From: Gekko japonicus | Lineage: Eukaryota | Direction: 5' to 3' | Assembly: GCF_001447785.1 (NCBI RefSeq) | Contig: NW_015160305.1 | Span: 111,258 to 175,257, forward strand | DNA: 64,000 nt | The notes under the pieces: generated by a model | Database searches by the model: none | Told to the model about the DNA's origin: nothing | The model's input: the letters and a program-made list of their open reading frames with translations, nothing else | Shown: positions 6,553 through 63,027 of the stretch, one piece after another | How the letters are laid out: each line of letters starts with the position of its first letter | Numbering within the stretch: the first letter of the stretch is position 1 | Program-made: the position numbers and the translations under genes

Positions 6553-7710
6553 TAAGAACCTGGAAGAAGCCAAAACACAGTTACCCGAACATACTGTGTA
6601 GGACTGGTTAGCCAGAAGGGGAGATACTCTTAGATGAGGACATTCTCCAATATATTTATCTGGGCTCAAGACAGCATGTTTTTCTGGAATGTATTATGTT
6701 GGAATGGCAGCATATAATTTACAAGCATGACAAAGCATCCCCCCCCCATAGTTCTCTCCTTTTCATAGTTCTCCCCATTAACAAAAGCACCCCTCTTTCC
6801 GTTCTTCATCAGAGAGTCCAAGTGGTCTTGATTTCTGATTCTCAGCATGGCAACTTAGAGCAATTATGAGCCATAATATAAATGTGTTTCCCCCCCCCAC
6901 TTCATTAAAATAATTCAAAACACACATGAAACTCAGAAAGTATAACACCATCTACCAGGCCGAGAAGGTTATCAGATGCCAAATGGCCGGGAAGATGGAT
7001 GCCTTATCCACAACACTCTTCTTTCTTGTGCATGTCTATAGAGGACCAAAACCAGACGACAGCCGGGAGCCCCCCGCTCTGGCAGAAGATCGACTTGGCA
7101 ACCCTATGCCTGGGTACCCTTGCCTTTAGAAATGAAACAAGTGGTGACCAAAGACAGGGCCTTTTTGGGCAATGGCACCTTATCTTTGGACAGTTGTCCC
7201 CAGAGTGTCTGCATTTGTTAGTGTTCATGCGCATTGTGGGGAGGAACTTATTTTCCTCTTGTCTGAGGGTGAACTGAGTTTAGCCATTTGTTTTGCTCTT
7301 GTTTTTCAATCTTCTACAGTACACCAATAAATGACATTGATTTGTCTTTCCAATAGGCTGTCTTCTAGAAAGATTCTGGTAAGTTGCTTTGGAAAAGTAG
7401 GGTATAAATACTTTTTCTGAATACAAATGGTAAAGACGTAATGCATCTGATGAGGGCAAGAGTCCAGTAGCACCTTAAAAGCTAACAAAATATATGGCAA
7501 GGTATGAGCTTTCCTGAGTCACTGCTCATTTCTTCAGATATCAGGTCTGATAAGGGCTTGTTCGTTTTTCTACCACGGGAGCTTTAAGTAAATTGACCCT
7601 CCACCGCCCACAGTTGAATCCAGATTACCAGAGTAAAATGTGATGAGAGGAGTTAACAATCACAAGATTTGTGTTTATTTTTCAGGTCAACTGAATCATC
7701 AAGAAGAGCC

Positions 7711-8393
7711 ATGGGTGGGAAAAGTTCGACACCAGTGGTAAGCAATAAACCCGAAGAGAAGTCTGCCAGGGAAGAAGAAAATCTTTCAGATCTGACTGTG
7801 TCAAGAAAAGCCACACTTGACATTGCCGTCACAGGACTGACAGGTGCTGGTAAATCGTCCCTTGTCAACGCCTTGCGGGGTCTATCAGATTTTGATGAGG
7901 AGGCAGCCAAAACTGACGTGATAGAAGGAACAACAGAACCAATGGGTTACGCGCACCCCACCTTTCCAGATGTCACAGTATGGGACCTACCAGGAATTGG
8001 GACACCTAATTTTAAAGCCGAGGAATACCTGGAAAGAGTAAATTACAGCCAATATGATTTCTTCATAATCGTCGCTTCTAATTCCTTCACTGTCAATGAC
8101 ATCCAGCTGTCCCAGGCAATTCAGAAAATGAAGAAGCGGTTCTACTACGTGTGGTCCAAAATGGACATTGCCATTAGTAGCGAAAAACTGAACCCAGACT
8201 TCAATGAGGAAGCAACCCTTCAGAAAGTCAGGGAATATTGCCTTGATAATTTGGTGGAGGCTGGTATTTCTTCTCCGGAGATTTTCCTGGTCTCCAATTG
8301 GTACCCGGAAAAGTATGACTTCCCCCTCCTGCAGAGAACTTTAGAGAATGAAATCGAGGCTCTGAGGAAACGTATCTTAAGACCAGCTGACAA
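7711..8393 (+). CDS. IRG gene 1, coding exon A: myristoylation motif plus G domain only
   Basis: Acceptor TTTTCAG| at 7685, ATG 7711 in GCCATGG context, MGGKSS; G1 GLTGAGKSS, G3 WDLPG, G4 WSKMD; phase-2 donor AA|GTATGT at 8393 (unspliced ORF stops at 8424). Confidence 0.9.
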
Positions 8394-9374
8394 GTATGTT
8401 GGGTTTAATCAGTTGTTGATTTGATTTTCTTTCTGTATGAACAAAAAGTGTGCCCAAAAATGCAGACCTGGTTCAGGAGTGATGGAGGGGGGCAACTACA
8501 TGGATTAGAGTTACCTATTTTTGTACCTTTACTCCAATTTTAAAAAGCTGCACAATACTTTTAAATATTAGTACAAGTATATTATGACGATCAAATATAT
8601 CGTATATATTCAGTATATACGGTATAAATTCACTAAATGAATGCAAATCCCACTCCATATGGCAAAATAAATGTACTATGCACTTTTCTTTTCCTTCACC
8701 AGGGTATAAAGCTTTTGAGAGATGTGATTTCTGATTGGTGAAATGACCACAGGTGGAGAGAACAGTTTTGACTGTCTTTCCCAGTGTGTGGTGGGGCTTT
8801 TTTTGGCGGGGTCAGAAAAAACTAGAGTTCCAGTCGCAAAATTGCCTCTCTTTTCAATGCAGAAAATTAATCAAAAAAACAGCTTTTACTGTTTGATGCA
8901 TTCCAGCATTACGCAAGACATGTCAACAACCACAGGATCTCTGGAGATCTGCCATAAATAAAACCTGTTCTGTTTTGAAGGGCACCTGGTGGTTGCATTG
9001 GATTTTTCCCCTGATAAGATCCATGGTGGCTTTTCTGTTTTATCTTGTTTTTATGTATTGGCATGCATGCCCTGATGTTAGCCGCCCTGAGCCCGTTTGC
9101 GGGGAGGGAGGCCTAGAAATTGAATGAATAAATAAATAAATAAAATAAACAACTGATGGTTGCTGCTATAGCTAGATTTATTGCTGTTTGTTACTATTGA
9201 CATCAGTCCTGCTGTGCTAATCTTACTTCTTGCAGTTTCCTGTTCTTAGGTTGTTAAGGATGGCATTCTCTTTCAGGTTTTAAAATCTTTCTCTGTAAGT
9301 AGCCTAGAGCACTCACTTAATAGACAGGCGAGGGTAGGAACTTCCTAAATAAATGTTTCTTTTTTGTTTCTTAG

Positions 9375-10593
9375 AACAACCAAACCATCCAAAGGAAGCG
9401 GAATCCATTTCATCCTGCTCCAAAAAATCTTAAAAATTGACCTTGCAAAGCTGAGAGACGATCTGATGTATAGAAGTCTTGAAGAGGTGACTGAGGACAT
9501 ACGTCAAGAATTGGATGAATTACAAAATGTCAAGCTTGACATTGCCATCACAGGAGTGTCGGGTGCTGGTAAATCATCCCTTGTCAATGCCCTGAGGGGC
9601 ATGGCCGATTATGAAGAAGGTGCAGCTAAAGTTGGAATAATTCAAACAACTATGGAGTGTCACGCCTATCCACATCCCTTATTTCCGAATGTAACCATAT
9701 GGGATCTACCAGGAATTGGTACACCTGAATTTAGACCAAAGGAATACCTAGAGAAGGTCAATTTTAGCCAGTATGATTTCTTCATGATTGTCACCTCAGA
9801 ACGTTTCACTGAGAATGATGCCCTCCTGGCCCAGGAAATCACGAAAATGAAGAAGACATTTTACTTTGTGCGCTCCAAAATGGATGTCAGTATGGCTGCT
9901 GAAATTAGGGACCCAAATTTCAATAAGGACAAATCAATTCAGAAGATACGAAGATATTGCTATGATAACCTGACTAAGGCAGGAGAATCTAATCCAAGGG
10001 TTTTCCTTGTCTCCAGGCAAAATTTGAGTATGTATGATTTCCCAGATCTGCAAGAAACCTTGGAAAATAATCTGGATGATCTCAAGAGACATGCCTTAAT
10101 TCTGGCTATGCCCCTTTTCTCCAGAACAATCCTCAAAAAGAAAAAGGCTGCTATGGAGGCCCTTATATGGAAACTCGCTATTGTATCCTGTGCTATCGGG
10201 GCGCTTCCTGTCCCAGGACTTTCTTTGGTTTGTGATCTTGGCATCTTGGTAGGAGCATTGCTGCATTTCTATAAAGTCTTTGGCTTAGATGAAGCGTCCC
10301 TCCGCAGAGTTGCAAAAGTCTTTGGCAAAGATTACCAAGTTCTGAAATCTGCTATCAAAAAGTCTCCGATGTCCAGTGAGATTACACCCAAATTTGTAGC
10401 TGGCCTCTTGGCCCGGTCATTGCTCTGGGCAACTGTGAGTGTAATAGAACTGGTCTTGGATATTGTACCGGTATTGGGCTCTCTGTTTGGAGGAGTTAGT
10501 TCCTTCGTCACCACATTCTTCATGCTGAGGAGCTTCTTGAAGGACATCGTGGAAGATGCGGAGAACGTTCGGGCAAAAGCTACTGAGCCTTGA
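9375..10593 (+). CDS. IRG gene 1, coding exon B: complete p47/IRG GTPase (interferon-inducible GTPase 5-like)
   Basis: No ATG at ORF start; polypyrimidine acceptor TTTCTTAG| at 9374 in phase 2; GVSGAGKSS, WDLPGIG, RSKMD and C-terminal helical domain (PVPGLS); AATAAA at 11100-11105. Confidence 0.92.
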
Positions 10594-11656
10594 CCATCAC
10601 GATATCCCGTCACAAAGACCCAAGGCACCAATTGGGGAAGAGAGTCCCAGGTACAAACTGTGTGAAATCCTGTGCAGGACTAGAACTCGAGTATGAGTGA
10701 AAAAGGAAATTGGATTCGGATTTCAGATCAGAAGCTTATTTTTCTGTTAACCGACCCCCAACATAATTGAACTTTCCAGTATGAAATAACAAAAGAAATC
10801 TGTCTAGATGGTCCCAGTTTTGAAGCCTCCTTTCCCCATCCCTGCTTGTCCAAAGAGCTCTTCAGGGCCTCTGAAGAACCACAGGCACGGCACAATTCAA
10901 ATCAGAATTTTCTTTCATAAAAAATGCACACTAGCTAATAGTATGTTCTTGTGACCTACTTTGATTGCTTTGCACTGCAGCCCTTAGTCTGTGACAAGCC
11001 TTTTACCATAGATCATCTGCAGCCAGCATGGCCATGGGAAATTTAACAAATTTCGGTCTTTTATTCCTTTGATTTCTGTACCAGTTTTTGCATTACATGA
11101 ATAAATCTAACTTCTTATTCAAGTAAAGTGAGTGTTCTTCTGATTTCAAAGGAGGGGGTTCAACTTAGGGCCCTCTCATGCCCTACATTAACACCTAGAT
11201 TCTATCAGCCAAGAAGAGCTTTCAGGCCCTTTAGGGAAGGGGGTGGTTGAAGACTCAAATTTCACAGAGGGGCTTCTCACCTGGATCTCTCCCCAGTCAT
11301 CTATGCCAGTCAGGCTGTTCTGTAGCTCACTAGGGGGACTAGTAAACCGGAAAACAGGCTGACAGCGCTTAGGATGAAATGAAATACAATTTCTCCACTG
11401 TAATTAACAATGTTATTTTATAATAGCCAATAACACATCCACACTGTTACATATTCTGTCTTTCATATGCACACCCAAAATACAGGGGGAAAGTGGGTTC
11501 AAAAGTACAGGGAAAAAGTGGGTTGACGAAACTCCCCGGAGTTGATTTTCATTTCGTTCACAACTTCATCCAAACATACTGAAGCACCATGGTAGTCTCT
11601 CTTGAAAATCTACTGTTCATAGTGTCTTCGTATGATATTCCATGCCATGATTTCAA

Positions 11657-21954: not shown

Positions 21955-24900
21955 TGTTAGATCGCGCTAACAAAGGACTCGTAGAGTGATTCAGCAAGTG
22001 ATTCAGCTTTATTAGAAGTAACGAACAAGCACTAACTCAGTAAGAAACCAGAACAGAAAACAGTGGGAGCTTATGCTCCTTTTAAACATAACCGGGCTAA
22101 TGTAGCCACGCCTATTTACAAATAACAACCAATGAGATTGCTTGGATAAGGGCCAATGGGAGTCTTTCCCTCCTAGGGAATGGTATCGTTCTGATTGGTC
22201 GCTGTTACGAAGCGACCAATAGGAAGTTCGCTCAGAGGAGCCCTGGTCTGGCTCGAAGCTTAACATAGGAGTCCTATGAGGTGATTCATGTAATCAGTTC
22301 AATACATTACAATTCCTCCCCCCTAAGTTAAGCCATCATCCCAATTGTTTTATTATTTACATACATTCAAGTCATGCTGTTGTACATCAACTGTTCCAAA
22401 ATACTTTATTACACTCGTAGTCTTTTAGATAAGTCGGCATCTGCCGCGTACGCTGAGACCTGCGAAGCGGTGCAGGCTCTATAGACACACAAGGTTGTGA
22501 GTCACTGTGGGGTTCACTACAGCCTGGTTCAGGCACAAACTCTACTGGGATTTCAGCCCCGCACACAGGGTTCTGCCCTGACTCGGGGACAGTACCGGGC
22601 CTTTCGGTACTCACCGCCTGCTCTGGGGGTCTCCACTCAACATCAGGGGAATCAGCCGTCGGAGAGTCAGCGCTGTCCCTAGCCCAACGTCTCCTTAACG
22701 GATCTATGTGGCGCCGCCATATTCGACCGTCAGCTAACTGCACCACATACATTCGAGTACCCACAGAGTCGGATATAACCCCAGGAAGCCACAAGTGCCC
22801 GTTTGCATAATTTCGTGCGAAAACCTTGTCCCCTTTTTCAAACATGCGCACCTTCGGTTGCGCCGTGGTACGCTCGGATTGCTCTTCAGTGAGGTCTGGG
22901 TGCATTCGGTTCAAACGGGTCGTGAGTCTCCGCCCCATTAACAATTCGGCCGGACTACGGCCTGTAGCACTACAGGGGGTGGTGTGCTGCAGCAAAAGAA
23001 AGGAGCCCAGCCTCTGGCTCCAGTCCCCTTCGTCCATTTTACCCAGGGCCTCTTTGGCCGTCCTGACCATCCGTTCGGCTTGGCCATTAGATGCCGGATG
23101 GAAAGGGGCCGAAGTCATTTGGCGTATGCCATTACTCGTGAGGAAGAGCCTAAATTCCTCAGACACAAATTGAGGCCCGTTGTCACTGACGATGACGTCA
23201 GGCAACCCGTGGGTGGCAAAAAGTCGGCGGAGCGCATGGATCACAGCAAGTGATGTGGTCGATTTCATATGCACGACCTCCAGCCATTTGGACATAGCGT
23301 CCACCACAATTAGGAACATTTGCCCTTGGAGAGGGCCAGCAAAATCTATATGCAATCTGGCCCAGGGTTTACCAGATGACTCCCAGCCTTGGGGTGTAGC
23401 TTGTGGGGGATCGGGTCTGACTTGCTGGCATTTGGGACACCCTCGTACCCATTCTTCGATCTCTTTGTCCAGCCCCGGCCACCAGACATACCCTCTGGCC
23501 AACGCTTTGGTGTGTACCATACCGGGGTGACCCTCGTGCAGCGACTCTAACACTCTCGTCCTGAGTTTGTCAGGAACCACCACCCTGTTCCCCCATAATA
23601 CACAGCCCTTAGAAATGGATAGTTCATTTTGACGGCTTTTGTAAGGGCCGAACTCCGGTTCAACGCTTCCAACCGGCCACCCCCTCCAAACCCAGTTTAA
23701 TACTCGGGACAGCACGCTATCCTTGGCCGTGTGTGCTGCAATGTCCCTGGATGATACCGGGGGTCGAGGAAGCTCCTCAATTGCCAAGACCTCACAGGCG
23801 GGGGCAGGGTCTGCGCCAATGTCCGGCACCGGGCACCGGCTGAGGGCATCCGCATGCCCAATCGCTTTCCCAGGCCGGTGCTCTAAGTCAAAATCATAAG
23901 CCTGCAAAAATATCGCCCATCTAAGCATGCGTGGGGACATGATGTTTGGCAATTGCTTATCGGGCGCAAAAATCCCCAGTAGCGGCTTGTGGTCAGTGAC
24001 CAGCAAAAATCGTCTGCCAAAAATAAAATCATGGAACTTTTTGACAGCCGCTACCAACGCCAGACCCTCCTTGTCTATCTGGGCATAGTTCCGCTCTGCC
24101 GCAGATAGTGATCTAGAATAAAAAGCGATAGGCGCTTCGCTCCCATCAGGCATCAGATGGCTTAAAACTGCGCCTACTCCAAACGGTGAAGCGTCAGCAG
24201 CTAACACCAGGAGCTTGTGTTCATCATAATGCGTGAGTACGGCATTAGATGTCAGCAGCTCCTTGACTCCCACAAAAGCCTTTTCCTCGGCCTGCCCCCA
24301 CTTCCATTTTGCCTCCTTGTGCAAAAGCGCGTGCAAAGGGGCCGCCACTGATGCCTTATGCGGTAAAAACGCATGATAAAAATTCAGGAGTCCTAAAAAG
24401 GATTGGAGCTCCTTCTTACTCACCGGCCTGGGGGCGTTTTGGATTGCAGATACCTTCTCATCCGTGGGGTGGACTCCCTCTGCGTCAATGCGAAACCCCA
24501 GGAAGTCCACACTTTCCACCCCGAGCGTGCATTTTGAGCGCTTAACTCTGAGGCCGGCATTTTGAAAACGCCTGAGGACCTCTTTAACCCGGTCCAGTAG
24601 TTCCTGTTCAGACCCGCCCGCAATCAGCACGTCGTCAAAATAGGGCACTGTGCCAGGTACCCCCCTTAGTAGACGTTCCATGAGGCCCTGAAAAATCCCA
24701 GGTGCTACGTTGACCCCGAATTGCAGCCTGTTCACTTTAAAAGCCCCTTGGTGGGTTACAATTGTTTGGGCCTCGGCAGCCTCCGGGGTGACAGGCAACT
24801 GCTGGTATGCCTGGGCCAGGTCAAATTTGGCGAAAATCTTGCCACCCCCCAGGGAAGCCAAAATGTGGCTTATTACCGGGACCGGGTACGAATGTTGCTG

Positions 24901-26928
24901 CAGCGCCTTGTTAATCGTACATTTGTAATCGGCGCATAGTCGTATGGACCCATCTGATTTGACAGGGGTTACGATCGGGGTCTCCCATTTGCTGTATGGT
25001 ACTGGCTCTAAAACCCCTTGCTCAACTAGTTTGTCAATCTCTTTTTCCACCTTATGTTTGAGAGACACAGGTACTTTCCGATACTTCAACCTAATAGGTT
25101 TGACTGACGGATCTAAGTCAAACGCAACCGGGGGGCCCTTGTACCTTCCCAACCCTTCGGCAAATACATCAGGGAACAGGTCGTACAGCATGCCCCATTT
25201 ATTTTCAGACATCCTGTTAATCCCAGAAATACCGATGCCCAATGGCTCAAACCAATCTAACCCTAGCAGGTTAACCCGGTCTCCCTCTGCAATCAGGAAT
25301 GACAGTTTAACACATTTCCCCTTATACTCAACAGTAACAGAGTCCCGTCCGGCCAAGGGAATTCGGTTGCCCTGGAAGTCGGACACTCTGGTTCCCGCAG
25401 GCTGGAGCCGCCGCCGGCTTCGGTTCGGGAACAACTGGCGCCAGGACGCGGCAGAAATCACCGTCACGGACGATCCTGAGTCCACCTCCATTGTACAGGG
25501 TCGGCCGTCGAGGAGTGGAGTCACGGTGATCTTGCCCTGGCTGCTGGTGCGATTTACGGCCGATGCGCTCGACAAGGTCGCCGTCAACTGGCAGCTTGCT
25601 TCCGATGCTGAGGAACGGGTCTTGCCTTGGGTGCTGACTGGAGTGCCCCTCTGCGCTGACCGGTTGTTAGTTGAGGGATCCTTCTTCGCTGATCTGCAGA
25701 CTCTGGCCAGATGACCACGCCGCCCACACGCTCTGCAGTCGACATCACGAGCCCAACAGGAGCCGCGCTGGTGCTTCCCGCCACAACCGGAGCAAGGCTT
25801 GACGTTGGTAGTCTTCGCTGGGGTCCGCTTGCCTCGAACCGCGTTGACGTCATCATCCGCGTCTTCGCCCTCGCTGTCTCGTTGAGCGTGTATACTGGGC
25901 TCTGCCACCCGCTGGCGGACCTCCTTCGTGGACTTCTCCGCTGCTTCCGCGGCCACGGCCTCTTCGTAGGCCACTGCCCAGGTCAGGGTGGTGCGGGCGA
26001 ACAGCCTCTGTTGCAGCCTTTCATCTTTGAGACCGCAGACGAGACGGTCTCTGAGGGCTTCCTCCACGTTGTGGAAATTACATGGCCGTGCGGCTTTGCG
26101 AAGGGCCGCCACGAAATCTGCGATGGTCTCGCCTCCGGCCTGGTTCCGCTTGTAAAAAGCGTGCCGGCAGGCGATCTCCGACGGTTGTGGAGAATAGTGA
26201 GCCTTAAGCTTCTCCGTGATGTCAGCGTAGGTGACAGTCTTTATATCAGTTGGGGCCACCAACGACCTGGCTATGTCGAAGGTCCCCTTCCCGCAGGAAC
26301 TCAGGAGGCATGCTCGTTTCTTCGCCTCATCGGTGATGTCGTGGGTCTCCAGATGGAACTCGAACCTGGACAGGTAGGAGTCCCAGTCTTCTGAGGAGGG
26401 TTCGAAGCACTCGAACTTCTGGCTTCCAGCCATCGGGGGAGACTTGGGCACCGGAGCTGGTGGCGCCTCCGCCGGATCGGCTGCTGTGCTCTGCTCGCTT
26501 TCTTCCGAGTCCGAAGTGTGGATGTCCGCAGGGCTGCCTACCTGCTCTAACATCCCACCTTCGTCGCCAATTGTTAGATCGCGCTAACAAAGGACTCTTA
26601 GAGTGATTCAGCAAGTGATTCAGCTTTATTGGAAGTAACGAGCAAGCACTAACTCAGTAAGAAACCAGAACAGAAAACAGTGGGAGCTTATGCTCCTTTT
26701 AAACATAACCGGGCTAATGTAGCCACGCCTATTTACAAATAACAACCAATGAGATTGCTTGGATAAGGGCCAATGGGAGTCTTTCCCTCCTAGGGAATGG
26801 TATCGTTCTGATTGGTCGCTGTTACGAAGCGACCAATAGGAAGTTCGCTCAGAGGAGCCCTGGTCTGGCTCGAAGCTTAACATGGGAGTCCTATGAGGTG
26901 ATTCATGTAATCATTTCAATACATTACA
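21955..26928 (-). mobile_element. Full-length Ty3/Gypsy (Mag-like) LTR retrotransposon in intron 1 of IRG gene 2
   Basis: 357-bp LTRs at 21955-22311 and 26572-26928 (TG..CA, 5 mismatches), TSD AATTG, tRNA-Ser-type PBS at 26552-26569, PPT at 22312-22326. Confidence 0.97.
22387..26553 (-). CDS. Gypsy Gag-Pol polyprotein, 1388 aa, single uninterrupted ORF
   Basis: Two zinc knuckles (CSGCGGKH..C, CRACGRRGH..C), protease VDSGS, RT YFDD, RNase H (DAS..TDHKPL), integrase HHCC and D,D-E (IDFAG, SDNG, AER). Confidence 0.95.
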   Translation of the reverse strand: MLEQVGSPADIHTSDSEESEQSTAADPAEAPPAPVPKSPPMAGSQKFECFEPSSEDWDSYLSRFEFHLETHDITDEAKKRACLLSSCGKGTFDIARSLVAPTDIKTVTYADITEKLKAHYSPQPSEIACRHAFYKRNQAGGETIADFVAALRKAARPCNFHNVEEALRDRLVCGLKDERLQQRLFARTTLTWAVAYEEAVAAEAAEKSTKEVRQRVAEPSIHAQRDSEGEDADDDVNAVRGKRTPAKTTNVKPCSGCGGKHQRGSCWARDVDCRACGRRGHLARVCRSAKKDPSTNNRSAQRGTPVSTQGKTRSSASEASCQLTATLSSASAVNRTSSQGKITVTPLLDGRPCTMEVDSGSSVTVISAASWRQLFPNRSRRRLQPAGTRVSDFQGNRIPLAGRDSVTVEYKGKCVKLSFLIAEGDRVNLLGLDWFEPLGIGISGINRMSENKWGMLYDLFPDVFAEGLGRYKGPPVAFDLDPSVKPIRLKYRKVPVSLKHKVEKEIDKLVEQGVLEPVPYSKWETPIVTPVKSDGSIRLCADYKCTINKALQQHSYPVPVISHILASLGGGKIFAKFDLAQAYQQLPVTPEAAEAQTIVTHQGAFKVNRLQFGVNVAPGIFQGLMERLLRGVPGTVPYFDDVLIAGGSEQELLDRVKEVLRRFQNAGLRVKRSKCTLGVESVDFLGFRIDAEGVHPTDEKVSAIQNAPRPVSKKELQSFLGLLNFYHAFLPHKASVAAPLHALLHKEAKWKWGQAEEKAFVGVKELLTSNAVLTHYDEHKLLVLAADASPFGVGAVLSHLMPDGSEAPIAFYSRSLSAAERNYAQIDKEGLALVAAVKKFHDFIFGRRFLLVTDHKPLLGIFAPDKQLPNIMSPRMLRWAIFLQAYDFDLEHRPGKAIGHADALSRCPVPDIGADPAPACEVLAIEELPRPPVSSRDIAAHTAKDSVLSRVLNWVWRGWPVGSVEPEFGPYKSRQNELSISKGCVLWGNRVVVPDKLRTRVLESLHEGHPGMVHTKALARGYVWWPGLDKEIEEWVRGCPKCQQVRPDPPQATPQGWESSGKPWARLHIDFAGPLQGQMFLIVVDAMSKWLEVVHMKSTTSLAVIHALRRLFATHGLPDVIVSDNGPQFVSEEFRLFLTSNGIRQMTSAPFHPASNGQAERMVRTAKEALGKMDEGDWSQRLGSFLLLQHTTPCSATGRSPAELLMGRRLTTRLNRMHPDLTEEQSERTTAQPKVRMFEKGDKVFARNYANGHLWLPGVISDSVGTRMYVVQLADGRIWRRHIDPLRRRWARDSADSPTADSPDVEWRPPEQAVSTERPGTVPESGQNPVCGAEIPVEFVPEPGCSEPHSDSQPCVSIEPAPLRRSQRTRQMPTYLKDYECNKVFWNS

Positions 26929-27597: not shown

Positions 27598-28256
27598 ATG
27601 GGTGGGAGAAGTTCGACACAAGTAAGCAGTGAAGCTGAAGAGAAGTCTGCCAAGGAACAAGGAAACTTCTCAGATCTAACTGCATCAGGAAAAGCCACAC
27701 TTGACATTGCCATCACGGGACTGACAGGTGCTGGTAAATCGTCCCTTGTCAATGCCTTGCGGGGTCTATCAGATTTTGAAGATGAGGCAGCCCATATTGA
27801 TGTGATAGAAGGAACAACAGAGCCAATAGGTTACCTGCACCCCACCATTCCAGATGTCACAATATGGGACCTACCAGGAATTGGGACACCTGATTTTAAA
27901 GCTAAGGAATACCTGGAAAGAGTAAATTACAGCCAGTATGATTTCTTCATAATCGTTGCTTCAAATCGCTTCACCGTCTACGACATCCAGCTGTCCCAGG
28001 CAATTCAGAAAATGAAGAAGCAGTTCTGCTACGTGTGGTCCAAAATGGACATCAGCATTAAGAATGCCAAACTGCATCCAGACTTCAATGAGGAAGCAAC
28101 CCTTCAAAAAGTCAGGAAATATTGCCTGGATAATTTGGTGAAGGCTGGTATTTCTTCTCCGGAGATTTTCCTAATTTCCAGTTGGTTTCAGGAAAAGTAC
28201 GATTTCCCCCTCCTGCAAAGGACTCTGAGGAGACATATCTTGAGACCAGCTGACAA
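27598..28256 (+). CDS. IRG gene 2, coding exon A: myristoylation motif plus G domain only
   Basis: Acceptor TTTTCAG| at 27572, MGGRSS, GLTGAGKSS, WDLPG, WSKMD; phase-2 donor AA|GTATGT at 28256 (unspliced stop at 28287). Confidence 0.9.
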
Positions 28257-29975: not shown

Positions 29976-31194
29976 ATCAACCAAACCATCCAAAGAAAGT
30001 GGAATCCGTTTTATCTTCCTCCAAAAAATCTTAAAAATCGACCTTTCAAAGCTGAGGGATAAACTGATGAACAGAAATCTTGAGGAGGTGGCTGAGGAAA
30101 TTCGTCAAGAATTGGAGGAATTACAAAATGCCAAGCTTGACATTGCCATCACAGGAGTCTCGGGTGCTGGCAAATCATCCCTTGTCAATGCCCTGAGGGG
30201 CATGACAGATTGGGAAGAAGATGCATCTGAGGTTGGAATAACGCAAACAACTATGGAGTGTCAAGCCTATCCACATCCCTTATTTCCAAACGTAACCATA
30301 TGGGATCTACCAGGGATTGGGACCCCTGAATTTAGACCAAAGGATTACCTAGAGAAGGTCCATTTTAGCCAGTATGATTTCTTCATGATTGTCGGCTCAG
30401 AACGTTTCACTGAGAATGACGTCCTCCTGGCCCAGGAAATTAAGAAAATGAAGAAGAAATTTTACTTTGTGCGCTCCAAAATGGATGACAGTATGGCTGC
30501 CGAAAGTAGGAATCCAAACTTCGATATGGACACATCCATTCAGAAGATACGAAAACATTGTTATCATGAACTGACAAAGGCAGGAGAATCTAATCCAAGG
30601 GTTTTCCTCATCTCCAGGCGAGATTTGAGTATGTATGATTTCCCAGATCTGCAAGAAACCTTGGAAAATGACCTGGATGATCTCAAGAGACATGCCTTAA
30701 TTCTGGCTATGCCCCTTTTCTCCAGAAAAATCCTGGAAAAGAAAAAGGCTGCTATGCATGCCCTTATATGGAAACTTGCTATTGTATCCAGTGTTATCGG
30801 GGCGATTCCTGTCCCAGGACTTTCTTTGGCTTGTGATCTTGGCATCTTGGTAGCAGCGCTGCTCCGTTTCTACAAAGTCTTTGGCTTGGATGAAGAGTCC
30901 CTCCGCAGAGTTGCAAAAGTGTTTGGCAAAGATTACCAAGTGCTAAAATCTGCTATCAAAAAGTCTCCCATGTCTAGTGAGATTACGCGCAAATTTGTAG
31001 CTGGCCTTTTGGCCCGGTCATTGCTTTGGGCCAGTGTGAGAGTAATAGAACTGGTCTTGGATTTTGTACCAGTGTTGGGGTCTCTGGTTGGAGGAGTTAG
31101 TTCCTTCGTCACCACATTCTTCATGCTGAGGAGTTTCCTGAAAAATATTGTAGAGGATGCAGAGAATGTTCGGGCAAAAGCTACTGAGCCTTGA
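29976..31194 (+). CDS. IRG gene 2, coding exon B: complete IRG GTPase
   Basis: Phase-2 acceptor TTTCTTAG| at 29975, no ATG at ORF start, all G motifs and C-terminal helical domain present; AATAAA at 31705-31710. Confidence 0.92.
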
Positions 31195-39996: not shown

Positions 39997-42906
39997 TTTG
40001 TTTTTGGTAAACATTTTATTTTTAGGATACATTCAACAAAGTTCAACACTTGTATTACAATTCTTATCCCTTTATATCCTACCCTCCTCCCTTCCCCCCC
40101 CCCCATGTATGGCTTCCCACAGTGCTACAACCTCCTGCATAATCCTTAGGTTACTCTTAAGTACTCCTCTTTATCTCTACACATTCAACAGGTAACTTGT
40201 TTTTTCACAATTCTCTATGCTCAATAGTTATCAAAGCAAAATAAATTGTCTCTCACATCCCAATATTTTTCCAAGTATTCTTTTAAGTCTTTCCAGTCTT
40301 CAAAAAAGTCTTCTGCTGCCATATTATTCAGTTTCCTTGTCATCTTATCCATTTCAACCATAAAAAGTAGTTTTTTTGATCCTTTTAATCCATTCTCCAA
40401 TTCCAGGAACTTCCTCCTGTTTCCAACTTTGCGCATATGTCATTCTGGCAGTCACAATCGTATACCACATAAGCGTCCTTTTCGCCACATTGACCTGTTC
40501 CATTTTAAGTCCCAAAAGTAATATTTCTGGTTCCTTTTTAAATGTGCAGTTAACTATTTTTTCCATCTCTGCATGAATCTCAACCCAAAACTTCTTAGCT
40601 TTTCCACATGTCCACCACATATGGTAAAGCGAGCCTTCTACTTTTTTACATTTCCAACATTTACTCGACATATTTGTATTCATATTTGCAATCTTTTTTG
40701 AAGTCATATACCGTCTATACATCATTTTATAACAGTTCTCTTTTAAATTATTACATGTCGATATTTTCAAGGCACTCTTCCATAAATATTCCCAAGATGA
40801 CATAGGAATTTCCTTATTCATATTTATTGCCCATTTTACCATTTGCTCTTTAACTACCTCGTCCTCAGTGTACCATTTTAACAATATTTTGTACATTTTT
40901 GAGATAAGTTTCTAACCTCCCTCCAACCACAAATTCTCTATATCCTTATATTTCCCTCTAAAGCCAAAGGTCTTTTTGTCTTTTTTAAACAAATCATTAA
41001 TTTGTCTATATTGGAACCAACCATATTTAAATGCTAGATCTTCTTCCATTTTCATTTCATATGTCTTTCCCACAGGCTTCAACATGTCTTTATATTATAC
41101 CCAATCTTCTCCTTTATATATCAAAAAAGGCTTTATCACCTCTGTCGGTACAATCCAAAGAGGTCTCTGATCAGAAAAAAACCTTCTGTATTTAATCCAT
41201 GTATCAAAAAGTACTCTCCTGATGTAATGATGCTTAAAAAGACCATCCATTTTCACCTTCTCGTACCATAAATATGCATGCCATCCAAATTTGCAGTCAT
41301 GACCTTCTAATGCCAACAATTTCTTATTGCTTAAAGTGGCCCACTGCTGCAACCAAGTTAAACACACTGCTTCATGGTACAACCTCAAATTTGGCAGCTG
41401 GAATCNNNNNNNNNNNNNNNNNNNNNNNNNNNNNNNNNNNNNNNNNNNNNNNNNNNNNNNNNNNNNNNNNNNNNNNNNNNNNNNNNNNNNNNNNNNNNNN
41501 NNNNNNNNNNNNNNNNNNNNNNNNNNNNNNNNNNNNNNNNNNNNNNNNNNNNNNNNNNNNNNNNNNNNNNNNNNNNNNNNNNNNNNNNNNNNNNNNNNNN
41601 NNNNNNNNNNNNNNNNNNNNNNNNNNNNNNNNNNNNNNNNNNNNNNNNNNNNNNNNNNNNNNNNNNNNNNNNNNNNNNNNNNNNNNNNNNNNNNNNNNNN
41701 NNNNNNNNNNNNNNNNNNNNNNNNNNNNNNNNNNNNNNNNNNNNNNNNNNNNNNNNNNNNNNNNNNNNNNNNNNNNNNNNNNNNNNNNNNNNNNNNNNNN
41801 NNNNNNNNTAGGGCTTATTTTTGGGGTAGGTATTATTATTATTTAGTCTTTTTCACAAGGCCTTCTATTGTCTTGTCTTCCTTAATCTGCTTCAGTAATA
41901 CTTCTAAAATCCATATAAATAATAATGGGGACAAAGGACATCCTTGCCTCGTCCCCTTCTGCACTTTAAAGTATTCCATCACATCTAAATTTATAACCAA
42001 TGCTGCTTTTTGTTCTGTATATATTGCTTCAATTATATTTCGGAATTGCTCTCCTATGTCAATCTTATCCACTACACTATTATACATAAAGTCCCAGTTC
42101 AAATTATCAAAAGCTTTCTCCGCATCTGCAAAAAAGAAACCAATCTCCTTCTCAACATGCTTATCATAATATTCAATTGCATCAATCACTATTCTCATGT
42201 TGTCCTTTATCTGTCTGTTGGGCAAAAAACCTGCTTGCTCTTCTTCTATAACCTCTTTTAAATATATCTTGAGTCTCTTCGAGATAATCTTGGCTAACAA
42301 TTTATAGTCAGTATTCAAAAGGGAAATTGGTCTATAATTTTTCACATTTGTTAAATCCTGAGATTCCTTGGGGATAAGCGAAATCGTGGCCTCTTTCCAT
42401 GATTCTGGTATCTTCTTCGTTTCTCGTATATCATTCATCAAAAGTTCAAAGATTGGGATTAGCTTCTCTTTAGTTTTTTTATAAAATTTTGCTGTGAAGC
42501 TGTCTGGTCCTGGAGCCTTTCCCAACTTTGCTTCCTGAATTGCCATATCTATTTCTTCCTTCTTTATTGGGCCATTCAACATCTTTTTAAATTCTTCCGA
42601 AACTTTTTCCAAATTTATTTTATCCAAATAGGTTATTATCTTATTTTTATCTATTGTTTTTCTTGCAAAAAGATTTGCATAGTATTTTTTAAAAAACTCT
42701 TTTGATTCCGTTCATATCCACAATTTCTTTTCCCCCATCTATTAATTTGTTTATAATTTTATTCTCCCGTCTCTTTTTCAGTTGTCAAGCCAAAAATTTT
42801 CCTGGTTTATTTGCCCCCTCAAACGACTTCTGTTGGAGTCTCTTCAAATTCCAATATATTTCCTGATTTAATAAGGCATTTAATTGCTCCTGTAAAATTT
42901 GAATTT
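39997..42906 (-). mobile_element. 5'-truncated, degenerate L1-clade LINE (ORF2 RT and C-terminus), spanning an assembly gap
   Basis: KAPGPD, NYRPISLLNTDYK, DAEKAFD, GTRQGCPLSPLLF and CWKC..H..W.C motifs; stops and frameshifts; A-rich tail near 40000. Confidence 0.9.
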
Positions 42907-45384: not shown

Positions 45385-46061
45385 ATGGGTGGGGGAAGTT
45401 CAACACCAGTCAGCAGTGAACCTGAAGAGAAGTCTGCCAAGGAAGGAGGAATCCTCTCAGGAAAAACCATGCTTGACATTGCCATCACAGGGGTATCAGG
45501 TACTGGCAAATCATCCCTTGTCAATGCCCTGAGGGGCCTATCAGATTTTGATGAAGGTGCAGCTGAAATTGGTGTGAAGGAAACAACAACAGAGCCAACT
45601 GGTTACCCCCACCCCACCTTTCCAGATGTCACAATATGGGACCTACCAGGAATTGGGACACGTAATTTTAAACCCAGGGAATACGCAAAAAAGGTAAATT
45701 TTAGCCAATATGATTTCTTCATAATCGTCACCTCTGTTTGCTTCACTGTCAATGACATCCTGCTATCCCGGGAAATTCAGAAAATGAAGAAGCGGTTCTA
45801 CATTGTGAGGTCCAAAGTGGACTTCCGCATTGAGAATGAAAAACGGCGTCCAGACTTCAGTGAGGAAACAACCCTTCAAAAAGTCAGGAAACATTGTTTT
45901 GATAATTTTGGGGAGGCTGGTATTTCTTCTCCAGAGATTTTCCTCGTCTCCATTTTCTATCTGGAAAAGTACGACTTCCCCCTCCTGCAAAGAAGCTTGG
46001 AGAATGAAATTGAAGACCTCAAGATACGTGCCTTAATAGCAGGAAAGAAGAAATACGCGAG
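45385..46061 (+). CDS. IRG gene 3, coding exon A: myristoylation motif plus G domain only
   Basis: Acceptor TTTTCAG| at 45359, MGGGSS, GVSGTGKSS, WDLPG, RSKVD; phase-2 donor AG|GTATGT at 46061 (unspliced stop at 46080). Confidence 0.9.
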
Positions 46062-49118: not shown

Positions 49119-50337
49119 GTCAACTGCAGCATGGGGAATGACTGGAATTGGTGCTTTCTTCTCAAAACATGTCTTAGGAATTGACCTTGCAGAGTTGAGG
49201 GATGCTACAGCACAAAGAAGTCTCAAAGAGGTGGCAGACGAAGCTCGTCAAGAATGGGGTGCACTGAAAAATGCCAAGCTCAACATTGCAATCACAGGTG
49301 CATCAGGTGTTGGTAAATCATCCCTTGTCAACGCGATGAGGGGCATGACTGATTATGAAGAAGGTGCAGCCCAGACTGGAGTGGTGCAGACAACTATGGA
49401 TGTCCATGGGTATCCTCATCCCTCATTTCCCAATGTAACTTTGTGGGACATACCGGGAATCAGGACCCCTACATTTAGACCAGAGGATTACCTAAAGAGG
49501 GTCAACTTTAGCCAATATGATTTCTTCATCATTGTTGCCTCAGAACGGTTCCGTGAGAATGACGTCCTCCTGGCCCAAGAAATTAAGAAAATGCAGAAGA
49601 AGTACTATTATGTGTTTTCCAAGGTGGATGTCTGTATGGATTCCGAGAGAAGGAGACCCAACTTCAGTGAGGACAAAACCCTTGAGAAGATAAAGAACTA
49701 TTGCTGTGAGAATCTGAGAGAGGCAGGAGAGCCTTCTCCAAGGGTTTTCCTCGTTTCCAGGTGGCACTTGAATATGTACGATTTCCCTCTCTTGCAAGAG
49801 ACCTTGGAAATGGAACTAGACGGTCTCAAGAGGCATGCATTCATTCTGGCTTTGCCAGTTTTCTCAAGAGAAATCCTGGAAAAGAAGAAGGCTGCTATGG
49901 AGGCCCATATATGGAAAGTAGCCCTTGTGTCTTGTGCTATTGGGGTAGTTCCTGTCCCAGGACTTTCTTTTGCCTGTGATCTTAGCATCTTGGTAGGAGC
50001 GCTGCTCATTTTCTACAAGGTCTTTGGGTTGACTGAAGAGTCCCTCCGCAGAGTTGCAAAACAGGTTGGCAAAGATTATGAAGTGTTGAAATCTGCTGTC
50101 AAGAAGTCTCCAATGTCTAGTGAGATCACTCCGGAATTTGTAGTGGGTCTCTTGGCCAGGTCATTGCTGTGTGGGTCCCTGATGACATTAGAACTGGTCT
50201 TTGATTTTGTACCAGTGTTGGGCTCTCTGGTTGGAGGGGCTAGTTCCTTTGTCACCACATTCTACATGCTGAGGAGCTTCCTGAAGGACATTGTGGAAGA
50301 TGCTGAGAACGTTCGGGCAAAAGCTGCTGAGCCTTGA
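49119..50337 (+). CDS. IRG gene 3, coding exon B: complete IRG GTPase
   Basis: Phase-2 acceptor CTTACTAG| at 49118, in frame with ATG 49138; GASGVGKSS, WDIPG, FSKVD and C-terminal helical domain. Confidence 0.92.
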
Positions 50338-52416: not shown

Positions 52417-52641
52417 CCCCCAGGCAGCTTTTAAAACATGAACCTGGGACCTGCACACCATCCTCTGAAGCGCTCTCTGTGGCAGTAATGGGGTGACTGC
52501 TGGCACCTTTTCCTATCATTTTTTGCCTTGAGGTATTCTGCTTGTGGTGTGATCTGTCTTACCCCCAGGCAGCTTTTAAAACATGAACCTGGGGCCTGCA
52601 CACCATCCTCTGAAACGCTCTCTGTGGCAGTAATGGGGTGA
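52417..52641 (+). repeat. ~145-bp tandem duplication whose second copy is split by a LINE
   Basis: CCCCAGGCAGCTTTTAAAACATGAACCTGGG starts at ~52417 and ~52563; the second copy resumes at 54078. Confidence 0.8.
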
Positions 52642-54063
52642 GGTTTAGGCAGGGTAGGTCAACAATGGACCACTGCCTTCTTCTTCAGCATCTCATTGAC
52701 AAATACTCTGGCAAAGGCCCCTCGTCACTTTATGCTGCGTTTATTGATCTTAAAGCGGCCTTCGACTCCATTTCTAGATCTATATTATGGAGAAAACTTG
52801 AAGCCTCTACAATAGACAGGAGACTTTTAGCGCTCATTCATGCCCTTCATGAACAAACATCTTTGAGGGTTAGATATACCAGGTTGGGGCATTTGACTGA
52901 TAAAATTCCCACTTTAAAGGGAGTTAGGCAAGGATGTATGCTAGCGCCTGCGCTTTTTAACTTTTACCTCAACGATGTTGCTGGATGTCTCAATATTATG
53001 GCCTTTGGCAGGAGACCCAAATTAAGAAAGTGGAGTGTAAATGACCAGAATCTTGAACAGGTAGCTAGCTTTCGCTACCTAGGCATGATCATCCAAGCCT
53101 CTGGATCTAAGACTGCCCATAGCCAGGCAGCAGCATGCTCGGGNNNNNNNNNNNNNNNNNNNNNNNNNNNNNNNNNNNNNNNNNNNNNNNNNNNNNNNNN
53201 NNNNNNNNNNNNNNNNNNNNNNNNNNNNNNNNNNNNNNNNNNNNNNNNNNNNNNNNNNNNNNNNNNNNNNNNNNNNNNNNNNNNNNNNNNNNNNNNNNNN
53301 NNNNNNNNNNNNNNNNNNNNNNNNNNNNNNNNNNNNNNNNNNNNNNNNNNNNNNNNNNNNNNNNNNNNNNNNNNNNNNNNNNNNNNNNNNNNNNNNNNNN
53401 NNNNNNNNNNNNNNNNNNNNNNNNNNNNNNNNNNNNNNNNNNNNNGCACCAACTAGTAATAAATACATTGTTGCGCAGGCCCCATATTTAGATGTTCTGG
53501 AGTCCCGCAAACTCAGAAGGGCTTACACTTTGGCTAGATGCTCTGCCTTACCTTCTGCAGTTCTTGAGGGCAAATTTTAAAAATTACCCCGAACAGAGAG
53601 GTTATGTATGTGCGCGTTGGGGGAGATCGAATCTCAGGAGCATGTATTCTTAAGGTGCCCGTTATTTGAAGAGGCGCGCACAAAACTCATTGAGCCTTTT
53701 TTGGCAGGCACTTCTGATCAGGATAAGATGGAAAACTTGTTTTTTAACCTTGAACATACAGCGCTCCATCAGATTGCGAAATTTTGCTCCTTGGTTATAA
53801 AAGCTCATCAGTGCCCTGGTTGTCACTCGGGTTAGGACTGTTTGATTGTAACTTTTACTGTTTCCAAGTCATCTTAGTTCTTTCCTTTTATTGTGTTTTA
53901 TTGTAATCTTAAGTCTGGTTTTAGCTACCAAAATGATTGTATAATGTTATTTTTTAGTACCTAGTTGCACTTTGGAAATTTTACTATTAGGCCATTGTAG
54001 TTTATTTGTATTTCTATGGTTTTATATTGCTGGCTAGGTGCCGTAACAATAAAATTCAAAATT
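52642..54063 (+). mobile_element. 5'-truncated, internally deleted non-LTR retrotransposon (RTE-X-like)
   Basis: RT motifs FIDLKAAFD and GVRQGCMLAP without YADD, C-terminal ERLC..H..C region, AATAAAATTCAAAATT tail, 14-bp TSD CAGTAATGGGGTGA. Confidence 0.85.
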
Positions 54064-60736: not shown

Positions 60737-61802
60737 TTATAATTATTCTTTAAACAATCATCTGGTTCTTGTGTACACTTACCCTGAGAACTCAAAGGGT
60801 TGAACTTGTGTTTTCCTGAGAGCTTCCAAGGAAGCTGATGGGCAGTAGCTTTGTGATGGACAAAACAAAATACTACTTTACAAAGAAAGTGGTTAAAATG
60901 TGGGATTTGAGGCCAAAAGATGTAGTGATGGCCACCAGAATAAACAGCTTTCAAAGGGGATTAGATAGATTCATGGAGGGAAGGACTGCTTCCGGTCGTC
61001 GACAAGAGCAGACACGAGCTACCTAGCAGCTCGTCTTTGCTTATTATTCCACATCGTCTTTAAGGGTCTTTCCAACGCCCTTCAAGGGTTCTTTCGGAGG
61101 AAGAGCTCTAGCAAAAAGCTTTCTTCAACTAACAAGCTGGAGTAGCTATTTAGGGTATCTTTCAAAAAATTGCTCTGGAAATATCACATTGATATAGAGT
61201 GCAGTCTGTAATGTCCTATCATTTCACTTAGTGAAGTGTGGAGTCTGTTGCCAAGAGAAAAGCCTCTTCCTCCAGCCCAAGCAGCATTTCTCTTGGGAAA
61301 AGACACTTTGGATACTTATCCACAACACCCAAAACGTGGCTTTCTCTTAGTGCATGGCAACCCATGGGTGCTTCTTTTATGAAATGTTTTTAGAAAATTT
61401 TAAAAGAATAACCCCCTGGACGAGAAATACAGGCTGCTTAACAAACTCCAGTTCATTGAGAAATGATGACTCGGTCTCCTTGCCACACCTTGAGGATGGA
61501 TCCAACGAGGGTGTTGCCTGTAATGTTCTGAAAAGCAGATCTGCTCTCTTCTCTTCTTGTTATTATTAGACGGGCTCTGGAAACACAGGAAAGGTGAGAG
61601 AGGAAAAGCCCAACAGCCATTTGTCCAGGTATTTGGTTCTGCTGCTTCTCCGGAGCTTCAAGGCAACCACCACTCACAAACGGTGAGTCCATTTCTAATC
61701 AGATCAGCTCCCCTGACTTGCTCCCCTGTACCCCAGTGGCTTTGTGTTTTGCACTGAAAATATTTTTCAGTTGAACACATGTGAAACTGCCTTATACTGA
61801 AT

Positions 61803-62672
61803 CTGACCCTTGCTATTCGTAAAGCCTCATCAGACAGCCACTTTGCTTTCTTGTATTTCTTTTTCTTTGGGATGGTGGTGATTGCTGCCTCCTGTACAAT
61901 GTCACGAACCTCCGTCCATAGTTCTTCGGGCACTCTATCTATCAAATCTAGACCCCTGAATCTATTCTTCACCTCTACTGTATATTCATCAGGGATGTGA
62001 TCTAGGTCAAACCTGAATGGCCTCGTGGTTTTCCCAACTTTCTTCAGTTTAAGTCTGAATTTTGCAATGAGTAGTCATGATCTGAGTCACAGTCAGCTCC
62101 AGGTCTTGTTTTAACTGACTGGATAGAGCTTCTCCATCTTTGTCTGCAAATTATATAGTCAATCTGATTTCGGTGTTGCCCATCTGGTGATGTCATTGGG
62201 AAGAGTCGCCTCTTAGGTTGTTGGAAAAGGGTGTTCGCTATGACCAGTGTGTTCTCTTGACAAAACTCTGTTAACCTTTGCCCTGCTTTATTTTGCTTTC
62301 CAAGGCCAAACTTGTCTGTTAATCCGGTTACCTTTTGACTTCCTACCTTAGCATTCCAGTCCCCTATGATGATGAGGACATCATTTTTTGGTGTTAGTTC
62401 TAGGAGGTGTTGTAGGTCTTCATAGAACCGGCCCATTTCAGCCTCTTCTGCATCAGTGGTTGGGGCATAGACTTGGATTACTGTGATGTCGAATGGTGTG
62501 CCTTGGAATCGGACTGAAATCATTCTGTCATTTTTGAGATTGTATCCCAGTACTGACTTTTGCACTCTCTTGTTGGCTATAAAGGCCACACCATTTTTTC
62601 TACCAAGTGTGATCCACTGGAGAAGGAAATGGCAACCCACTCCAGTATCTTTGCCAAGAAAACCCCATGGAC
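61803..62672 (-). mobile_element. BovB (RTE) LINE fragment, endonuclease region, with a short inverted piece
   Basis: 'RKNGVAFIANKRVQKSVLGYNLKNDRMISVRFQGTPFDITVIQVYAPT..GDWNAKVG..NQIDYI..CDSDH'; a + strand BovB-like GGAGAAGGAAATGGCAACCCACTCCAGT lies at 62611-62672. Confidence 0.85.
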
Positions 62673-63027
62673 AGGAGACCAGCCTAGCCTCCTTTTTTTT
62701 TTTTTTGCCCACCAGTCTCAAAATGCAGGAGGAGGATCCTGCTAGGGATGGTTTTGCATTTCTTCTTCCTTCTGTTTTAGCCCCCAAATCCCCAATTTTG
62801 ATTTGGACAAATTAATGTATGATTTTCTGGTCCTGTACCATTTCCCTTGCATCTTCCGTGTATAATGTATACATTTCTCAATCTGGGGGTGGGAATTGAT
62901 ATATGACATTGAATTTAGATTTTAATTTTTGAAAGAAGGTTACTTCAGAGGGAGAGGCGGGTTTGGGGGAGAGCCTGGAAAGTGACATCACAGGAAGAGG
63001 TGGGGTTTTGGTACAGTGTACTGGAAG

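What the first reader, a model, noticed from the sequence alone, without database searches (positions are those of the whole stretch)
9619..9660. Switch I split between domains: Glu kept in all N-terminal domains, Gln in all C-terminal domains
Aligned by eye to mouse Irga6 switch I (GAAKTGVVEVT, recalled from memory), the Glu106-equivalent proposed to be needed for GTP hydrolysis is E in all three exon-A domains (VIEGT, VIEGT, VKETT). It is Q in all three exon-B domains (IIQTT, ITQTT, VVQTT). The pattern holds even in the divergent gene 3. Inference: division of labour, with the small domain catalytic and the full-length domain slower or activated in trans.
Basis: partly seen in the sequence, partly recalled or inferred. 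Interest (0 to 1): 0.7.

Follow-up and report, generated by a model that had tools for sequence, protein, structure and literature searches.

The report
Lizard immune GTPases swap catalytic residue
Three gecko immune genes each join a small GTPase domain carrying the usual catalytic glutamate to a full-size one carrying glutamine, but glutamine is just as common in the lizards' single-domain relatives, so it is likely a family-wide, probably slower-cycling variant rather than a special split of labour between the two halves.

Summary
At the position that aligns without gaps to Irga6 Glu106, all three exon-A domains have Glu and all three exon-B domains have Gln. Gene 1's A-to-B splice is seen in RNA, so these are true tandems: a G-domain-only unit followed by a full IRG.

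The six domains are copies of one ancestral contrast, about a 1-in-4 outcome. Gln occurs in 13 of 24 single-domain paralogues of this genome and 21 of 41 gecko database singles, and also in N-terminal domains. Nine of 14 non-gecko squamate tandems have no Glu in either half.

The larger finding: in the expanded squamate IRG clade this site is Glu or Gln in 173 of 181 domains and has switched at least 27 times. Elsewhere Gln is nearly absent (1 of 135 domains; 0 of 20 mouse IRGs). Gln genes keep every G motif and stay under purifying selection. Mouse E106Q oligomerises but does not hydrolyse, so Gln likely marks slower-cycling IRGs in a remodelled interface. No activity was measured.

The parts
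7711..8393 (+). Gene 1 exon A coding part: Met-Gly start, short leader, G-domain-only IRG unit (Asp at Gly103, Glu at Glu106, Ser at Arg159)
   Evidence: matches residues 1-228 of P0001; donor at 8393 seen in RNA
7924..7926 (+). Glu106-equivalent of A1 (GAA, Glu); Gly103-equivalent is GAC Asp at 7915
8394..9374 (+). 981-nt phase-2 GT..AG intron joining exon A to exon B in frame
   Evidence: 2 raw reads in X21 and one contig in X1
9375..10593 (+). Gene 1 exon B: full-length GKS-type IRG unit
   Evidence: last 405 residues of P0001
9619..9660 (+). Switch I of B1 (the finding); Gln codon CAA at 9643-9645 = Irga6 Glu106
27598..28256 (+). Gene 2 exon A coding part (Asp103 at 27799, Glu106 at 27808); donor predicted
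   Evidence: splice not tested in RNA
29976..31194 (+). Gene 2 exon B, full IRG unit (Gln106 at 30244); acceptor predicted, in frame
45385..46061 (+). Gene 3 exon A coding part (Gly103 kept, Glu106 at 45580, Cys at Arg159); donor predicted
   Evidence: start of database protein P0021
49119..50337 (+). Gene 3 exon B, full IRG unit (Gln106 CAG at 49387); has its own in-frame ATG at 49138
   Evidence: end of P0021; splice not seen (low depth, repeat noise)

Best explanation
These are tandem immunity-related GTPases whose Glu/Gln contrast at the Irga6-Glu106 position is real but was likely inherited once from one ancestral gecko tandem, and Gln is an equally common, likely selected state across the whole expanded lizard family, where it is predicted to give domains that bind GTP and oligomerise but hydrolyse slowly. 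Shown: the residues, the splice of gene 1, the distribution of Glu and Gln, intact G motifs and purifying selection. Inferred: the squamate clade remodelled its G interface (Glu77 mostly hydrophobic, Lys161 mostly Thr), which made Gln tolerable; Glu or Gln then sets how long each paralogue stays GTP-bound. Predicted: in these tandems the tethered G-only unit docks head-to-head on the full IRG unit. Where it keeps Glu it would be the faster site, but the protein does not depend on that, since Q/Q tandems persist.
For: Single-domain genes: Gln in 13 of 24 in this genome and 21 of 41 gecko database entries, or 18 of 38 after removing three that fall in the tandem-C clade. N domains with Gln: 3 of 12 in this genome, 7 of 39 gecko and 8 of 14 other-squamate. 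Other-squamate tandems: Q/Q 7 and K/Q 2 of 14. Site 106 is E or Q in 173 of 181 clade domains, with at least 27 E/Q switches out of 34 changes, so it toggles rather than drifts; both CAA and CAG are used. Gln singles keep G3, Thr108, Arg159, Asp164 and Gly103 in 21 of 21, and have dN/dS 0.36 against 0.34 for Glu singles. Gln is 1 of 135 domains outside and 0 of 20 mouse IRGs. Glu77 is kept in 9 of 181 clade domains against 115 of 122 in the outside set; Lys161 is Thr in 165 of 181 against 7 of 122. Irga6 E106Q oligomerises but cannot activate hydrolysis (PMC3042988).
Against: No activity was measured; 'slow' rests on one mouse mutant in a different interface background. Gecko tandems do hold E/Q in 24 of 34, and C-terminal Glu is commoner where the N domain lost it (3 of 9 against 1 of 25, Fisher p=0.048), a hint of compensation; independent pairs gave no signal and had too few pairs to reach significance. 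All 8 exon-B domains read in this genome have Gln. The link between Gln and loss of Glu77 is confounded with ancestry. Both homologue searches list only the best 120 hits, so mammals are barely sampled outside mouse. Trees are FastTree or quick IQ-TREE, and many deep forks are open.
Confidence: 0.5

Rival explanations
1. Gln is fully catalytic in squamate IRGs: the remodelled site uses the amide to place the water, as Ras Gln61 does (recalled), so Glu and Gln are near-equivalent and the window's pattern is an accident of descent.
For: At least 27 E/Q switches; equal constraint on Gln and Glu singles; Gln in 77 of 156 domains that lost Glu77 against 6 of 130 that kept it; close paralogues differ only in this state, such as L021 E among Q sisters.
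Against: No Glu106 substitution, Gln included, activated hydrolysis in Irga6. The tandem-C clade has held Gln in 32 of 38 geckos, more stable than free exchange suggests.
Confidence: 0.22
2. One reading: tandem-specific division of labour, in which the small N domain is the catalytic timer and the full-length membrane-binding domain stays GTP-bound.
For: E/Q in 24 of 34 gecko tandems and the weak compensation signal. The N domain keeps G1 (32 of 34), G3 (33 of 34) and the G4 Asp (34 of 34), with dN/dS 0.46. Predicted N-C docking: score 0.85, best control 0.00, runs agree in at least 97% of contacts, partner pLDDT at least 88; the mark was reached by 51 of 78 solved and 2 of 108 mismatched pairs, and a like dimer (5FPH) is solved, so the pass may be from memory.
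Against: Six of 34 gecko and 9 of 14 other-squamate tandems lack Glu in both halves; Pogona and three gecko tandems are reversed. Gln is equally common in singles. The N domain mostly has Asp at Gly103, and two of the three window A domains lack Arg159; both residues are needed in Irga6.
Confidence: 0.16
3. The N domain is a non-catalytic cap or decoy: it shields the C domain's G interface or baits parasite effectors, as mouse Irgb2 does, and its Glu is incidental; Asp103 is its real signature.
For: Asp103 in 30 of 39 gecko and 12 of 14 other-squamate N domains, Gly in 38 of 38 gecko C domains. Mouse N halves Irgb2, b5 and b9 have His at 106 while the C halves keep Glu, and Irgb2 binds ROP5 (PMC6420625). 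N is somewhat more variable than C (identity 0.71 against 0.75; dN/dS 0.46 against 0.32).
Against: No pairwise dN/dS above 1. Gly103 contacts the partner ribose through its main-chain nitrogen (PMC4774019), so Asp may be tolerated. Gene 3's N domain keeps Gly. This reading does not explain Gln in singles.
Confidence: 0.12

Closest known systems
Mouse Irga6 (IIGP1) and the GKS-type IRG family, Pfam PF05049
   Same: Fold (Foldseek E about 1e-25 to 5FPH and GM4951), G1 GKS, G3, G4 Asp, Thr108; switch I aligns without gaps.
   Different: Gln at Glu106 in the full-length unit; Glu77 and Lys161 replaced clade-wide; an extra G-only unit at the N-terminus.
Mouse tandem IRGs Irgb2-b1 and Irgb5-b4
   Same: Two coding units spliced into one frame (PMC1297648, PMC3810784); the halves differ at position 106.
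   Different: Mouse halves are both full-length (94 kDa), with His in N and Glu in C, the opposite polarity. The gecko N unit lacks the helical domains, and gecko N and C units sit inside the squamate clade, so the fusion is likely independent.
Zebrafish irgg-irgq1 tandem and mammalian IRGQ
   Same: A canonical truncated IRG joined to a modified downstream unit, with a regulatory role proposed in 2005 (PMC1297648).
   Different: Quasi-GTPases have broken G motifs; the gecko C unit keeps all of them and is full-length.
GMS regulators Irgm1-3
   Same: A natural non-Glu residue at 106 (Arg), proposed to suit a regulatory role.
   Different: The GMS P-loop and the Asp164His and Arg159Gln changes are absent here; E106R blocks oligomerisation whereas E106Q does not.

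Membership tests
IRG (p47) GTPases, GKS type | IIGP domain PF05049 above cut-off | tested here: met
   All six units score 220-308 bits against a cut-off of 24
IRG (p47) GTPases, GKS type | G1 GxxxxGKS, G3 DxPG and G4 KxD intact | tested here: met
   All six window units
IRG (p47) GTPases, GKS type | IRG fold with N- and C-terminal helical domains | tested here: met
   Met by the exon-B unit; the exon-A unit is G-domain only
IRG (p47) GTPases, GKS type | Interferon inducibility | not testable with these tools
   Only an ISRE-like string at 7129; no induction data
Irga6-type catalytic mechanism | Glu106 in switch I | tested here: not met
   Gln in B1-B3; Glu in A1-A3
Irga6-type catalytic mechanism | Interface residues Glu77, Gly103, Arg159, Lys161 | tested here: not met
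   Glu77 replaced in all six and Lys161 in all six (Thr in five, Arg in B3); Gly103 is Asp in A1 and A2; Arg159 lost in A1 and A3
Irga6-type catalytic mechanism | Cooperative GTP hydrolysis on G-domain dimerisation | not testable with these tools
   Docking predicted only
Tandem IRG, Irgb2-b1 type | Two coding units spliced into one frame | tested here: met
   Gene 1 in RNA; genes 2 and 3 predicted from in-frame splice sites
Tandem IRG, Irgb2-b1 type | Both units full-length | tested here: not met
   The N unit is 228 residues with no helical domains
GMS regulatory IRGs | GxxxxGMS P-loop | tested here: not met
   GKS in all six
IRGQ quasi-GTPases | Disrupted nucleotide-binding motifs | tested here: not met
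   Motifs intact in 30-34 of 34 gecko tandems in both halves

The most novel reading that the evidence does not exclude
Squamates evolved a large class of Gln-switch IRGs on a rewired G interface: natural long-lived GTP-state membrane effectors (or a second hydrolysis chemistry), toggled to and from Glu dozens of times as a one-base rate dial, with the gecko tandems carrying a tethered G-only timer docked on the Gln unit.
Probability: 0.25. Interest if true: 0.7.

Novelty: new variant of a known kind. Interest (0 to 1): 0.45.

Why it matters
Glu106 is the proposed catalytic residue of IRG GTPases, resting on one mouse protein and no transition-state structure in the passages I read. About half of a large lizard IRG family carries the substitution that stops activated hydrolysis in mouse, and keeps it under selection. 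Either hydrolysis is dispensable or tunable for IRG effector function, or the catalytic model is incomplete. Close Glu/Gln paralogue pairs and a covalently tethered heterodimer make that directly testable. The narrower claim of a tandem-specific split is an inherited coincidence as far as sequence can tell.

Tried and rejected
Alignment slip: rejected, the alignment is gap-free. Gln domains as decaying pseudogenes: rejected by motif retention and dN/dS. Compensation between halves: nominal Fisher p=0.048, no signal by independent pairs, which were too few to reach significance. One origin for gecko and other-squamate N domains: not recovered as one clade in either tree, deep forks open, AU test not run. 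No indexed holder was on record as RNA, which is no evidence either way; the raw RNA runs came in by species label. Literature searches for reptile IRG work and natural Gln106 found nothing on point; subscription papers are mostly outside the library. Passages of PMC10495984, PMC8605323 and bioRxiv 10.64898/2026.05.27.728090 added nothing on this residue. Earlier scan notes: none returned.

Full report
Observation. Six IRG G domains lie on the + strand in three A+B pairs. The finding's coordinates cover switch I of B1. phmmer aligns this region to Irga6 without gaps from residue 70 to 151, placing the Gln at 9643 on Glu106. A1-A3 have Glu (GAA) and B1-B3 have Gln (CAA, CAA, CAG).

Anatomy. Laying four runs on 6600-11000 gave one spliced joint, 8393>9375 GT..AG, in 2 reads of RNA run X21 and one contig of X1. 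Exon A (683 coding nt) and exon B account for all 633 residues of database protein P0001, labelled Gekko japonicus by its source. Genes 2 and 3 have matching phase-2 sites; gene 3 matches P0021; its junction was not seen. The AlphaFold model (pLDDT 79, pTM 0.77) shows a G-only unit at about 33-221, a low-confidence linker at 222-252 and a full IRG unit; its best fold matches are mouse IRGs. Both halves keep their G motifs in 30-34 of 34 gecko tandems and are under purifying selection, dN/dS 0.46 for N and 0.32 for C (Nei-Gojobori on 10 and 7 paralogues of this genome).

What is known of the residue. In Irga6, E106Q, D, A and N oligomerise while E106K and R do not, and no substitution activates hydrolysis; Glu106 is proposed to act in cis (PMC3042988: passages, section 5, and part 1 of 2 of supplement S2). 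In the 5FPH dimer it turns toward the Mg ion, and Gly103 contacts the partner's ribose through its main chain (PMC4774019, passages). E106A behaves as GTP-locked in cells (PMC2581590, passages). Among 20 mouse IRGs the site is Glu 13, Asp 1, His 3, Arg 3 and never Gln; the His three are Irgb2, b5 and b9, the N halves of the known or proposed tandems. An asymmetric tandem thus has a precedent, with opposite polarity, and distinct roles for tandem halves were proposed in 2005 (PMC1297648, passages).

Is it more than chance? No. On a 212-row G-domain tree built without columns 103-106, gecko N domains form one clade and gecko tandem C domains another (rows left out: database entries of this species that duplicate genome loci, P0110, gappy or broken rows, the degenerate L050 and two duplicates). 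The three genes repeat one contrast, about a 1-in-4 outcome at the clade's frequencies.

Is it tandem-specific? No. The genome search gave 74 matches; I read 56 and left 18 weaker or partial ones. Of these, N units have Glu 8, Gln 3, His 1; C units Gln 8 of 8 (one frameshifted); expanded-clade singles Gln 13, Glu 9, Lys 1, Arg 1, with identical duplicates counted once. In the 120 best database hits: gecko N units Glu 30 and Gln 7 of 39; gecko C units Gln 32 and Glu 5 of 38; gecko singles Gln 21 and Glu 19 of 41; other-squamate tandems Q/Q 7, K/Q 2, E/Q 1, Q/E 1 of 14; other-squamate singles Glu 8 of 9; non-lepidosaur tandems E/E 9 of 13. One single-domain gecko subfamily holds Gln in 13 of 14 rows.

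The real pattern. In 181 expanded-clade rows (one is a tuatara row that groups outside the squamates), site 106 is Gln 97, Glu 76 and other 8, with at least 27 E/Q switches among 34 changes; shuffled labels need 57 on average. A dead site should drift to other residues; this one toggles between two. A second search seeded with a conserved paralogue supplied the outside set: Gln is 1 of 30 in turtles, 0 of 44 in fish, 0 of 9 in amphibians, 0 of 2 in a bat and 0 of 50 in the conserved lepidosaur genes; 12 unnamed rows were set aside, as were domains lacking the G3 Asp. The clade has also replaced Glu77 and Lys161, both part of the Irga6 catalytic interface. Gln singles are as constrained as Glu singles.

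E/Q is the state of 24 of 34 gecko tandems (P0015, P0024 and P0038 left out as triple or separately derived; partial entries P0115 and P0110 also left out), and C-terminal Glu is nominally commoner where N lost it (p=0.048), though independent pairs show nothing. The two halves are predicted to dock through the canonical G interface, with C Thr344 (Ser132) near N Thr127 (Lys161) and both switch I segments in contact: score 0.85, best control 0.00, contact agreement at least 97%, partner pLDDT at least 88; the mark was reached by 51 of 78 solved and 2 of 108 mismatched pairs in a microbial calibration without ligands. A like dimer is solved, so this shows likeness, not binding.

Mechanism. Most likely (0.5): Gln is a family-wide, selected, slower-hydrolysing state, and the window's split is inherited. 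The slowness is inferred from the mouse mutant. The Ras Gln61 analogy is recalled, not from a call.

Novelty. My searches found no paper on squamate IRGs or natural Gln106 (listings only, except the papers named). The sequence supplements of PMC1297648 are old .doc files by the paper's own list; I did not open them, and they may hold non-mouse IRGs with Gln. Verdict: a new variant of a known kind, interest 0.45.

Noticed in passing
window 22387-26583 (-): An intact 1398-codon LTR-retrotransposon gag-pol-like frame (RT, RNase H and integrase domains) sits between IRG genes 1 and 2, likely a recent Gypsy-type insertion.
   Followed up: partly
G000:C1857:37304-46075 (L037, L028, L046) and G000:C595:62379-71426 (L034, L006): Arrays of two or three G-only exons in front of one full IRG exon; Paroedura P0015 is annotated with three G domains. 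Multi-G-domain IRGs may exist; the C1857 exon B is frameshifted.
   Followed up: partly
P0174, P0176, P0179, P0180, P0184, P0189, P0198, P0201-P0203, P0209, P0218 and others: A second, conserved tandem of about 598 residues in lizards, snakes, tuatara and turtles: a degenerate N G-domain with no G3 Asp, followed by a canonical IRG that nearly always has Glu106. This looks like a true pseudo-GTPase plus GTPase pair.
   Followed up: partly
L050 (G000:C4507:130527-133964): Two adjacent degenerate IRG-like frames, one with a broken P-loop; possibly IRGQ-like.
   Followed up: no
window 7915, 27799 and relatives: Asp at the Gly103 position marks N units in geckos (30 of 39) and other squamates (12 of 14) although the two N groups did not join on the trees; a wider N/C marker than Glu/Gln.
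   Followed up: partly
window 49138; 8394-8424: Exon B3 has its own in-frame ATG, and each exon A runs into a stop a few codons past its donor, so B-only or A-only products are possible; an X1 contig covers 8442-8701 inside the intron.
   Followed up: no
window 7129-7138: An ISRE-like string about 580 nt upstream of gene 1's start codon; one of 7 loose matches, no control run.
   Followed up: no
window 40354-42711, 52614-53456, 61658-62811: LINE-like reverse transcriptase and endonuclease fragments, judged by eye from the translations.
   Followed up: no
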